A stretch of 32,000 bases of DNA from Polyangiales bacterium (GTDB lineage: Bacteria; Myxococcota_A; Polyangia; Polyangiales; Polyangiaceae). The stretch spans positions 59 to 32,058 of the forward strand of contig JBBQWQ010000078.1 of the NCBI GenBank assembly GCA_038210445.1, in the 5' to 3' direction. The first letter of the stretch is position 1. Each line of letters begins with the position of its first letter. The position numbers were made by a program, and so were the translations under genes. The notes beneath the pieces were generated by a model, which saw only the letters and a program-made list of their open reading frames with translations, made no database searches and was not told the origin of the DNA. Shown one piece after another: positions 25,444 to 25,578 of this stretch.

Positions 25444-25578
25444 AAGAGAAGTGACGAGTGTTGCCAAGAGCTCATTGCCCGCCGAAGGTTGGGCACGCCT
25501 CCAGGGAAAGCGGGCTCATCACCCGCGGCGGAGGCGTTTGGAATCGAACCCATGTACTCCAAGCTGCATTCACTTCAG
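25444..25578 (-). ncRNA. YrlA-like Y RNA candidate 2 (circularly permuted tRNA-like module)
   Basis: Minus strand: GAAGTGA ATGCAGCTTGGAGTACAT GGG-TTCGATT-CCA AA CGCCTCC [GCC GCGGG-TGATGAG-CCCGC TTTCCCT] GGAGGCG T GCCC-AACCTTCGGC-GGGC AATGAGCTCTTGGCAACACTCG TCACTTC. The 7-bp acceptor-like helix CGCCTCC/GGAGGCG is capped by an inserted hairpin. The terminal helix is GAAGTGA/TCACTTC. It shares the AGCTKGGAGTACAT and CTTGGCA motifs with candidate 1. Confidence 0.5.

What the first reader, a model, noticed from the sequence alone, without database searches (positions are those of the whole stretch)
25444..25578. Second permuted tRNA-like module upstream of rsr, with covarying terminal helix and shared motifs
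Between tRNA-Asp and the Trp-like gene the order is the same. It begins with a T arm containing TTCGATT (weaker stem ATGGG/CCAAA), followed by CGCCTCC. Next comes a 27-nt cap that itself forms GCGGG-TGATGAG-CCCGC. Then come GGAGGCG (7/7 pairs with CGCCTCC) and a D-like arm GCCC-...-GGGC. The ends pair as GAAGTGA/TCACTTC, a different sequence from candidate 1's ATGAAGC/GCTTCAT but in the same position (covariation). Both elements share the 5'-side motif AGCTKGGAGTACAT just before the T arm and a 3'-side CTTGGCA. These resemble, loosely, the GCUGGU.../...CUUGAC strands of the Ro-binding helix of metazoan Y RNAs. Two Y RNAs per rsr locus are also seen in Salmonella (yrlA, yrlB).
Basis: partly seen in the sequence, partly recalled or inferred. 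Interest (0 to 1): 0.85.

Follow-up and report, generated by a model that had tools for sequence, protein, structure and literature searches.

The report
Divergent second YrlA-type Y RNA
The 134-nt stretch between tRNA-Asp and tRNA-Trp, upstream of the Ro60 gene (rsr), is a real, conserved but unusual relative of the known bacterial Y RNA YrlA, one of four Y-like RNAs threaded through a tRNA gene array, so it extends a known family and is not a new kind of element.

Summary
The element is real. Window 25444-25577 (minus strand) fills the gap between tRNA-Asp and tRNA-Trp, 569 nt upstream of rsr on the same strand.

- **Match to the known family:** it matches Rfam YrlA (RF02553) end to end, but only at 28.6 bits (cut-off 69).
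- **Conservation:** the same architecture recurs in three other lineages of Myxococcota (the window's lineage has two further close copies), with compensatory base changes. Looser relatives sit after tRNA-Asp in other rsr loci.

It is therefore a Y RNA of the YrlA kind, already described as a "circularly permuted tRNA" mimic. It is a variant subtype:
- the T stem is degenerate (2 G-C pairs);
- the D stem is GCCC/GGGC, not the near-invariant GCUC/GAGC;
- the acceptor-like helix is 8-9 bp, followed by a conserved GCC and a variable hairpin cap.

The locus holds four Y-like RNAs, not two. Rsr binding, expression and processing are inferred, not shown.

The parts
25444..25577 (-). Element B: a 134-nt YrlA-like Y RNA that fills the whole gap between tRNA-Asp and tRNA-Trp
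   Evidence: Rfam RF02553 matches model positions 1-114 at 28.6 bits. MFE fold. Homologues at L002:662-807, L010:430-575, L022:3766-3896 and L272:1927-2067.
25570..25576 (-). Terminal helix, 5' strand GAAGUGA. It overlaps AGUGAAUG (25567-25574), which sits at the position of the GNCGAAN0-1G motif.
   Evidence: Pairs with 25448-25454. 3 of 7 pairs change on both sides in L022 and L272 (GCGGCGA/UCGCCGC). Motif definition from PMC4201824.
25448..25454 (-). Terminal helix, 3' strand UCACUUC, preceded by the loop AACACUCG (25455-25462)
   Evidence: CUCGUCAC corresponds to the family consensus CUUGUCGC.
25552..25564 (-). Second helix 5' strand GCUUGGAGU, then A, then CAU (third short helix).
   Evidence: Pairs with 25463-25475. 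Pair changes seen: U-G to G-C, U.U to A-U, C-G to U-G.
25463..25475 (-). AUG, then A, then GCUCUUGGC: the 3' strands of the third and second helices
25540..25550 (-). T-arm remnant: GG-UUCGAUU-CC. The canonical T loop is kept but only 2 G-C pairs remain, with G.A next to them (C.A in orthologues).
   Evidence: The Rfam alignment deletes or mismatches three of the six T-stem pairs.
25529..25537 (-). Acceptor-like helix, first strand ACGCCUCCG. It is followed by CC (25527-25528), so the text reads CGCCUCC-G-CC.
   Evidence: 9 bp with 25495-25503. The outer pair is A-U, G-C or C-G, and the next pair C-G or U-A, across lineages. GCC is kept in all four lineages, and L272 encodes GCCA.
25504..25526 (-). 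Cap: hairpin GCGGGU-GAUGA-GCCCGC plus linker UUUCCC
   Evidence: A hairpin is present in every lineage but with unrelated sequence and length. MFE is -11.5 to -22.5 kcal/mol, with 0-13 of 300 shuffles as stable.
25495..25503 (-). Acceptor-like helix, second strand UGGAGGCGU
25477..25494 (-). D-like arm GCCC-AACCUUCGGC-GGGC
   Evidence: 4 bp in all homologues. The loop varies in length and sequence but always contains GG.
25578..25650 (-). tRNA-Asp(GUC), abutting the 5' end of the element. No CCA is encoded.
   Evidence: ARAGORN. Sequence.
25372..25443 (-). tRNA-Trp(CCA), abutting the 3' end of the element
   Evidence: ARAGORN. Rfam tRNA 22.4 bits.
23295..24875 (-). rsr (Ro60 orthologue, 526 aa)
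   Evidence: Pfam TROVE and vWA_Ro60. ORF.
22429..22543 (-).
   Evidence: Rfam RF02553 67.4 bits, E = 2e-14.
22623..22705 (-). Third Y-like RNA (83 nt): the same two-helix stem module, with two small hairpins in place of the tRNA-like domain
   Evidence: Model R1 with filters off, 23.3 bits, E = 3e-5. Fold.
23059..23120 (-). Fourth Y-like RNA (62 nt, stem-loop only, YrlB-like), just downstream of rsr
   Evidence: R1 18.6 bits. Orthologues L002:3020-3082 and L010:3047-3109 score 34.4 bits.

Best explanation
Element B is a paralogous Y RNA of the YrlA class, whose proposed partner is the Rsr (Ro60) protein encoded 569 nt downstream.

**Shown**
- It has the YrlA order of parts. The 5' and 3' ends pair into a two-helix stem with internal loops. 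That stem carries the position of the GNCGAAN0-1G Ro-recognition motif. It supports a tRNA-like domain in permuted order: T loop, closed acceptor-like helix, D arm.
- These helices are kept by compensatory changes in other Myxococcota.

**Inferred**
1. *Biogenesis.* It is transcribed with the surrounding tRNA array, because it has no spacer on either side.
   - The tRNA 3'-end machinery, cutting after the tRNA-Asp discriminator, would free its 5' end. RNase Z is expected because no CCA is encoded.
   - RNase P, cutting at +1 of tRNA-Trp, would free its 3' end.
2. *Rsr binding.* Its stem would bind the outer surface of the Rsr ring, as in characterised Y RNAs.
3. *Effector.* Its tRNA-like end would tether or gate Rsr towards an effector. 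That effector is probably not the one used by the canonical YrlA of the same locus. The T and D stem sequences, which are near-invariant in YrlA and are proposed there as the effector site, are replaced in B.
4. *Possible internal cleavage.* The acceptor-like helix can be read as 7 bp, then discriminator G, then CC, with U at -1 and G at +1. This may be cut by RNase P and completed to CCA, as shown for Mycobacterium smegmatis YrlA. That would give a two-piece RNA.
For: - **Context.** rsr has TROVE and vWA_Ro60 domains. The element is on the same strand and well within the 4-kb criterion of Chen 2014 (PMC4201824).
- **Independent model.** Rfam YrlA matches positions 1-114 of 114 at 28.6 bits, E = 1.2e-4.
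- **Chain of homology.** Related post-tRNA-Asp elements score higher against the same Rfam model: L006:3568-3689 at 49.3 bits (E = 5e-8) and L004:1435-1563 at 36.2 bits.
- **Conservation of the same architecture.** L002 and L010 (Rsr 97% identical), L022 (69%) and L272 (69%) score 144, 144, 127 and 80 bits with model R1.
- **Pairing within the subtype.** Among the four distinct lineages, 130/136 pair cells are standard pairs and 6 pairs change on both sides. RNAalifold predicts the same helices without my input.
- **Pairing across the family.** On 23 Y-like RNAs, 94% of cells pair against 75% in shuffles and 37-62% when partners are slid. 24 of 34 pairs show double changes.
- **Cap.** A hairpin is present in all lineages with unrelated sequences.
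- **Synteny.** tRNA-Asp / element / tRNA-Trp is repeated in L002, L010, L272 and L273. The element follows tRNA-Asp in L004, L006 and L274.
- **Flanks.** tRNAs abut at 0-1 nt, and no terminator-like site lies within the array between tRNA-Lys and the canonical YrlA.
- **Precedent.** M. smegmatis YrlA, with a 7-bp acceptor stem, is cut by RNase P and receives CCA. Multiple YrlA-like RNAs per locus and long acceptor stems in delta-proteobacteria are reported (PMC4201824; 10.1101/312249).
Against: - There are no expression, binding or processing data.
- The Rfam score is far below the gathering score, and the hit was not listed in the 5-kb and 32-kb scans.
- The window copy deviates from GNCGAAN0-1G at two positions (AGUGAAUG).
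- The T stem is reduced to two G-C pairs, so it is uncertain whether a tRNA-like elbow forms.
- The subtype is patchy. Several related rsr loci have tRNA-Asp directly followed by another tRNA (L005, L276) or by rsr (L265).
- Compensatory support within the subtype rests on only four lineages. The family-wide alignment was fitted to the model.
- The GCC/U(-1) argument rests on four related sequences and could be shared ancestry.
Confidence: 0.75

Rival explanations
1. B is a decaying duplicate of YrlA. It is still recognisable but no longer functional, and is carried along passively in the tRNA array.
For: - The T stem is degenerate, the Rfam score is low (28.6 bits) and the D loop varies.
- It is absent from several related loci where tRNA-Asp is directly followed by another gene (L005, L265, L276).
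- In L274 and L275 the same position holds only a 64-nt stem-loop.
Against: - Lineages whose Rsr proteins are only 69% identical keep 130/136 pair cells, with double changes in the terminal and acceptor-like helices.
- They keep a hairpin in the cap while its sequence turns over completely.
- They keep the T loop (UUCGAUU, UUCGAAU or UUCAAUU across the lineages) together with its two flanking G-C pairs.
- A pseudogene would not preserve pairing in this way.
Confidence: 0.12
2. B is a tRNA-like structured spacer of the array that works independently of Rsr. It could be a processing platform for RNase P/Z, or a decoy for tRNA-targeting nucleases.
For: - It sits flush between two tRNA genes inside an array of at least 12 tRNAs.
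- Long tRNA arrays are proposed to act partly as sponges for toxin RNases under translational stress (PMC8421152).
- It keeps a T loop and a D arm with GG.
Against: - Its ends form the same two-helix module, with AAUGC and CUNGUC loops, as the canonical YrlA and the two short Y-like RNAs of the locus.
- That module is shared with YrlA RNAs next to rsr in many phyla (Rfam model). It is the proposed Ro-binding part and has no role in tRNA processing.
- In L022 the element lies about 100 nt upstream of rsr with no tRNA gene called anywhere in the 9.6-kb locus.
Confidence: 0.08
3. B is a circularly permuted tRNA gene, or a false positive made from the 3' half of one tRNA and the 5' half of the next. 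In the first case it would yield a decoding tRNA.
For: - The order of parts is T arm, acceptor 3' strand, spacer, acceptor 5' strand, D arm.
- RNA ligase genes (RtcB, or an RNA_ligase-family protein) lie in related loci.
- Chen 2014 warns that tandem tRNAs can mimic YrlA.
Against: - The element does not overlap either flanking tRNA call.
- There is no anticodon stem-loop. Where it would lie, the RNA ends pair over 7+9+3 bp with internal loops.
- ARAGORN and the Rfam tRNA model find nothing inside 25444-25577.
Confidence: 0.02

Closest known systems
Salmonella Typhimurium YrlA (Rfam RF02553; crystal structure of the tRNA-like domain described in bioRxiv 10.1101/312249)
   Same: - It is encoded next to rsr on the same strand.
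- The 5' and 3' ends pair into the Ro-binding module.
- The order of parts is T, closed acceptor-like stem-loop, D.
- It has the T-loop consensus and GG in the D loop.
- It is one of several Y RNAs per locus.
   Different: - The T stem has 2 G-C pairs, not the conserved 5-6 bp GCGGG/CCCGC.
- The D stem is GCCC/GGGC, not GCUC/GAGC.
- The acceptor-like helix is 8-9 bp plus a 27-nt hairpin-bearing cap, not 6 bp plus a small loop.
- It scores 28.6 bits against the 69-bit cut-off.
- It lies inside a tRNA array, not in an rsr-yrlBA-rtcBA operon.
Mycobacterium smegmatis YrlA (Chen et al. 2014, PMC4201824)
   Same: - It lies upstream of rsr and is processed from a longer precursor.
- Its tRNA-length (7-bp) acceptor stem makes it an RNase P substrate.
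- The 5' half ends in a tRNA-like CCA after addition.
- B1 elements offer 7 bp, then G, then CC(A/G), with U at -1 and G at +1.
   Different: - Cleavage and CCA addition are only predicted here.
- B's T stem is much weaker, which may impair recognition by RNase P.
- M. smegmatis YrlA is not flanked by tRNA genes on both sides, as far as that paper describes.
Long-acceptor-stem YrlA RNAs of cyanobacteria and delta-proteobacteria (second covariance model of Chen et al. 2014)
   Same: The stem between T and D is extended, and the host range includes the former delta-proteobacteria.
   Different: I could not read those sequences (no supplement is held). Whether they share the degenerate T stem, the GCCC D stem and the GCC tail is unknown.
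Deinococcus radiodurans Yrn1 and metazoan Y RNAs
   Same: They are Ro60-bound stem-loop RNAs. The terminal helix binds Ro, and the distal module tethers an effector (PNPase for Yrn1).
   Different: The order and identity of the tRNA-like parts differ in Yrn1, and metazoan Y RNAs have no tRNA-like domain. There is no detectable sequence homology here.
[quoted passage not shown] 2021, PMC8421152)
   Same: The genomic setting is the same: many tRNA genes on one strand, a linked HNH endonuclease, and RtcB nearby in related loci.
   Different: That paper's main text does not mention Ro60, TROVE or Y RNAs. Here rsr and four Y-like RNAs are embedded in the array.

Membership tests
YrlA Y RNA (Chen et al. 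2014; Rfam RF02553) | Encoded within 4 kb of a Ro60/TROVE gene, on the same strand | tested here: met
   The element is at 25444-25577(-). rsr is at 23295-24875(-) and has TROVE and vWA_Ro60 domains.
YrlA Y RNA (Chen et al. 2014; Rfam RF02553) | GNCGAAN0-1G motif near the 5' end | tested here: inconclusive
   The window copy reads AGUGAAUG, with two deviations. Each is matched by a change in the pairing partner (A-U and U-A). Orthologues L022, L272 and L273 read GGCGAAUG. The other three Y-like RNAs of the window also deviate: GAUGCAUG once and GGCAGAUG twice.
YrlA Y RNA (Chen et al. 2014; Rfam RF02553) | 5' and 3' ends pair into a stem that replaces the anticodon arm | tested here: met
   Helices of 7, 9 and 3 bp. 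All 7 terminal pairs show double changes across the family.
YrlA Y RNA (Chen et al. 2014; Rfam RF02553) | T stem-loop with near-invariant stem sequence | tested here: not met
   The T loop UUCGAUU is present, but only G-C, G-C and then G.A (C.A in orthologues). The Rfam alignment deletes or mismatches three stem pairs. Relatives L273, L004 and L006 have a full 5-bp T stem.
YrlA Y RNA (Chen et al. 2014; Rfam RF02553) | D stem-loop with near-invariant sequence (AGCUCA..GGUAGAGC) | tested here: not met
   A 4-bp arm is present, but it is GCCC/GGGC. The loop varies from 7 to 10 nt among the four lineages and contains GG.
YrlA Y RNA (Chen et al. 2014; Rfam RF02553) | Closed, sequence-variable acceptor-like stem-loop between T and D | tested here: met
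   9 bp with covarying outer pairs (A-U, G-C, C-G; C-G, U-A). The cap is a hairpin in every lineage.
YrlA Y RNA (Chen et al. 2014; Rfam RF02553) | Score at or above Rfam's gathering score (69 bits) | tested here: not met
   28.6 bits. The canonical copy in the same window is also just under, at 67.4 bits.
YrlA Y RNA (Chen et al. 2014; Rfam RF02553) | Bound by Rsr; T and D loops modified by TruB and DusA | not testable with these tools
   This needs immunoprecipitation and modification mapping.
Canonical tRNA | Cloverleaf with an anticodon stem-loop, in the standard order | tested here: not met
   No ARAGORN call and no Rfam tRNA match inside 25444-25577.
Circularly permuted tRNA gene | 3' half precedes 5' half, and an intact anticodon stem-loop is encoded | tested here: not met
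   The order is permuted, but no anticodon loop exists. The RNA termini pair there instead.
YrlB-type or short Y RNAs | Ro-binding stem without a full tRNA-like domain | tested here: not met
   B has T, acceptor-like and D parts. The short type is represented by 23059-23120 and 22623-22705.

The most novel reading that the evidence does not exclude
The rsr gene of these Myxococcota (and of Pyrinomonadaceae and Phycisphaerae relatives) may be an integral part of a long tRNA array.
- Several structurally distinct Y RNAs are interleaved among the tRNAs in that array.
- The tRNA-processing enzymes would cut them out.
- Each would programme the single Rsr for a different partner or substrate during translational or tRNA-damage stress.
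- Within that set, the B subtype would be the RNase P-cleavable, CCA-tailed, two-piece member. Its altered elbow stems would recruit an effector other than that of canonical YrlA.
Probability: 0.2. Interest if true: 0.6.

Novelty: new variant of a known kind. Interest (0 to 1): 0.4.

Why it matters
- **Detection.** Curated models miss real Y RNAs. Three of the four Y-like RNAs in this locus get no YrlA match in Rfam scans of the window or a 5-kb stretch, and even the canonical one is just under the cut-off.
- **Effector question.** The T and D stems, thought to be the invariant effector-binding face of YrlA, are replaceable in a conserved paralogue. A natural pair in one genome (canonical YrlA versus B) could be used to find what the tRNA-like end binds. 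That question has been open since 2014.
- **Processing.** The flush tRNA flanks, and the 7-bp + GCC acceptor-like helix, give directly testable predictions about Y RNA maturation by RNase P, RNase Z and the CCA-adding enzyme.
- **Context.** rsr embedded in long tRNA arrays with HNH and RtcB links Ro/Y RNPs to the translational-stress biology proposed for such arrays.

Tried and rejected
- **Phage DNA.** Megablast of 22300-26200 against phage records found nothing.
- **Viral contigs via Rsr.** Rsr peptide patterns in viral contigs gave no relatives. The closest phage Rsr is Myxococcus phage Mx1 at 46% identity, and its rsr region has no match to model R1.
- **Broad motif scan.** Only 8 Y-like RNAs of other architectures turned up, none of the B subtype, and this used the single metagenome scan.
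- **Subtype-specific motif.** A B-specific motif in viral contigs gave 0 hits.
- **Extra rsr contigs.** Of those fetched, only L272 added a B1 copy. L281 and L282 had none, and P0014 had no DNA.
- **MAFFT alignments.** Alignments of divergent copies mis-register the second helix by one column and scramble the cap. I therefore counted pairs on the model-fitted alignment and on the four-sequence MAFFT alignment A3, which is in register.
- **Promoter and terminator scan.** It was uninformative: 1 promoter-like site against 0.5 expected, and 2 terminator-like sites against 4.1 expected.
- **Supplement of Chen 2014.** It is not held.
- **Antisense ORFs.** ORFs across the element (for example 25408-25806+) run through tRNA genes, and I dismissed them as spurious.

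Full report
**1. What is in the sequence**

Read on the minus strand, window 25577->25444 is a 134-nt stretch. It fills the gap between tRNA-Asp(GUC) (25578-25650) and tRNA-Trp(CCA) (25372-25443) with no spacer on either side.

- terminal helix GAAGUGA/UCACUUC;
- a second helix GCUUGGAGU/GCUCUUGGC with one U.U mismatch, and a 3-bp CAU/AUG helix;
- a T loop UUCGAUU closed by only two G-C pairs;
- CGCCUCC/GGAGGCG, which extends to 9 bp with an A-U at one end and a G-U at the other;
- a 27-nt cap containing the hairpin GCGGGU-GAUGA-GCCCGC;
- a D-like arm GCCC-AACCUUCGGC-GGGC.

The minimum-free-energy fold of the single sequence gives exactly this arrangement (-53.1 kcal/mol; shuffles average -43.8, z = -2.49, 6 of 200 fold as well).

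**2. Context**

- The 526-aa ORF 23295-24875 on the same strand has the TROVE and Ro60-vWA domains, so it is rsr. The element ends 569 nt upstream of its start codon.
- Twelve tRNA genes lie on this strand between 22324 and 26133.
- An HNH endonuclease gene follows at 21664-22308. Beyond it are ordinary ABC-transporter genes on the other strand.
- The closest Rsr proteins are from Polyangiaceae genomes assembled from metagenomes (97% identity) and from other Myxococcota (62-72%), including Labilithrix and Pendulispora.

**3. Identity**

Searched on its own 161 nt, element B matches the same model from position 1 to 114 at 28.6 bits, E = 1.2e-4. The alignment has a 29-nt insertion in the acceptor-like loop, and three T-stem pairs are missing or mismatched. 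It does not appear in the 5-kb or whole-window scans.

The published description of YrlA fits the anatomy (PMC4201824; bioRxiv 10.1101/312249):
- a Ro-binding module made by the paired ends;
- then T, a closed 'acceptor' stem-loop and D;
- 'resembling circularly permuted tRNAs'.

The same papers report three further points:
- the acceptor stem length varies and is longer in some cyanobacteria and delta-proteobacteria;
- several YrlA-like RNAs can lie within 4 kb of rsr;
- Y RNAs sit next to tRNA genes in some bacteria.

**4. Conservation**

The element is 92% identical (mean column identity) in two close relatives, L002:662-807 and L010:430-575. Differences are concentrated in the cap and in the 3' strand of the second helix.

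I built a covariance model (R1) from these two, the window copy and L022:3766-3896. It found a further copy of the same architecture at L272:1927-2067 (79.8 bits). That copy is also flanked by a tRNA-Asp-like gene and tRNA-Trp.

Across the four distinct lineages:
- 130 of 136 pair cells are standard pairs, and six pairs change on both sides;
- three of those six are in the terminal helix (GAAGUGA/UCACUUC versus GCGGCGA/UCGCCGC);
- one is in the second helix;
- two are in the acceptor-like helix (outer pair A-U, G-C or C-G; next pair C-G or U-A);
- RNAalifold on the MAFFT alignment predicts the same helices unaided;
- the cap differs completely in sequence and length (27-40 nt) but contains a stable hairpin in every lineage.

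Looser relatives occupy the same position after tRNA-Asp:
- Pendulispora rubella, L273:2259-2370 (tRNA-Asp / element / tRNA-Trp);
- L004:1434-1563 and L006:3567-3689, which score 36 and 49 bits against Rfam YrlA.

All of these share the junction GGAGUACAU and the D stem GCCC/GGGC. Other Y-like RNAs of these loci have GACUACA, with GCUC/GAGC or GUCC/GGAC.

In L274 and L275 the post-tRNA-Asp position holds only the stem module, 64 nt. In L005, L265 and L276 it is empty. The subtype is therefore conserved but patchy.

On a model-fitted alignment of 23 Y-like RNAs:
- 94% of cells pair, against 75% in column shuffles and 37-62% with slid partners;
- 24 of 34 pairs show double changes.

This alignment leans towards the model by construction.

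**5.

- Candidate 1's terminal helix is GCGAUGC/GCAUCGC, not AUGAAGC/GCUUCAU. The latter overlaps the conserved AUGNA loop and the next helix. In the right register the two helices differ at 4 of 7 pairs with pairing kept, so the covariation claim survives in corrected form.
- The 5' motif AGCUKGGAGUACAU is truly homologous in both elements. It is the second-helix 5' strand plus the junction. Candidate 1 shares it only in this lineage.
- The 3' 'CUUGGCA' is a coincidence of two non-homologous positions.
- The counterpart of the metazoan Ro-binding GGUCCGA is the GNCGAAN0-1G position. In B this reads AGUGAAUG, with two substitutions that are both compensated in the partner strand. Orthologues read GGCGAAUG.

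**6. Mechanism**

*Shown:* the architecture, the homology, the conserved pairing and the flush tRNA flanks.

*Inferred:*
- Co-transcription with the array. No terminator-like site lies within the array between tRNA-Lys and the canonical YrlA.
- Release by the enzymes that mature the neighbouring tRNAs. No CCA is encoded after tRNA-Asp, so an RNase Z-type cut is expected at the element's 5' end. RNase P at tRNA-Trp +1 would make its 3' end.
- Rsr binding through the terminal module.
- A tethering role for the tRNA-like end.

The T and D stems are the most conserved part of YrlA and are proposed there as the effector-binding face. They are replaced in B, so I consider a different effector from that of the canonical YrlA likely.

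The acceptor-like helix can also be read as a tRNA-style substrate:
- 7 bp with G(+1)-C;
- U at -1;
- discriminator G, then CC. This GCC is kept in all four lineages, and L272 encodes GCCA.

M. smegmatis YrlA, the one YrlA with a 7-bp acceptor stem, is cut by RNase P and receives CCA in vivo (PMC4201824). I give the same fate for B about a one-in-three chance. The weak T stem argues against efficient recognition by RNase P.

**7. Rivals**

- *Non-functional relic.* This is disfavoured by the preserved pairing and the preserved cap hairpin across lineages whose Rsr proteins are 69% identical.
- *An Rsr-independent array spacer or decoy.* This does not explain the shared Ro-binding module, or the L022 copy, which sits next to rsr in a locus with no tRNA gene called.
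- *A permuted tRNA gene or a tandem-tRNA false positive.* This is excluded by the absence of an anticodon loop and of any overlap with tRNA calls.

**8. Verdict**

It belongs with the known YrlA-type Y RNAs as a variant subtype and fails two of the family's sequence criteria. It is of moderate interest (0.4): the principle is published, but the subtype, its predicted processing and the four-Y-RNA, tRNA-array setting are new and testable.

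Noticed in passing
window 22623-22705 (-): An 83-nt Y-like RNA lies between tRNA-Thr and tRNA-Pro. It has the same two-helix stem module (GAGGCAG-AUGCU-CGCGAGGACU ... GGUCUUCGC ... CUGCCUC) but two small hairpins in place of the tRNA-like domain. It is missed with default filters and found with filters off (R1 23.3 bits, E = 3e-5).
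   Followed up: partly
window 23059-23120 (-): A 62-nt stem-loop Y-like RNA (YrlB-like) lies about 175 nt downstream of the rsr stop codon. It is conserved in L002:3020-3082 and L010:3047-3109 (34.4 bits with R1).
   Followed up: partly
window 21664-26133; loci L002-L013, L016, L023, L266-L279: rsr homologues (50-97% identity) in Polyangiaceae, Pendulispora, Pyrinomonadaceae and some Phycisphaerae sit inside arrays of 10-30 same-strand tRNA genes.
- Two to five Y-like RNAs lie downstream, often in tandem.
- An HNH endonuclease gene is present, and often RtcB or an RNA ligase.
- This matches the 'L-array' tRNA operons of PMC8421152, whose main text does not mention Ro60 or Y RNAs.
   Followed up: partly
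window 25000-25067 (-): An unannotated tRNA-like sequence lies between tRNA-Gly(UCC) and tRNA-Arg(CCG). It has a 9-nt 'anticodon' loop AUUGCAACC and an odd T loop UUUGAUU. ARAGORN does not call it, and the Rfam tRNA-Sec model gives 23.4 bits.
   Followed up: no
window 25695-25759 (-): An unannotated tRNA-Phe(GAA)-like sequence has a non-canonical T loop (UGCGAGC). A 9-bp hairpin follows it, in the gap between tRNA-Asn and tRNA-Asp. Rfam tRNA gives 20.6 bits.
   Followed up: no
window 25840-26060 (-): A 221-nt gap between tRNA-Lys and tRNA-Asn folds very stably (MFE -107.9 kcal/mol) and includes a 12-bp perfect hairpin (GACGAGCGCAUC...GAUGCGCUCGUC). It has no family match.
   Followed up: no
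L274:1260-1356: After the short post-tRNA-Asp Y-like RNA comes a tRNA-Trp-like sequence with a long insertion before the T arm. ARAGORN does not call it.
   Followed up: no
L176, L196, L215, L230 (metagenome contigs): These contigs carry tandem Y-like RNAs of yet another architecture: stem module, then T arm, then acceptor-like hairpin, with no evident D arm. A second Y-like RNA starts a few nt downstream in each.
   Followed up: no
window 22429-22543 versus other loci: Only in the window lineage (window, L002, L010) does the canonical YrlA carry the B-type junction GAGUACAU, where other lineages have GACUACA. This suggests sequence exchange between the two paralogues.
   Followed up: no
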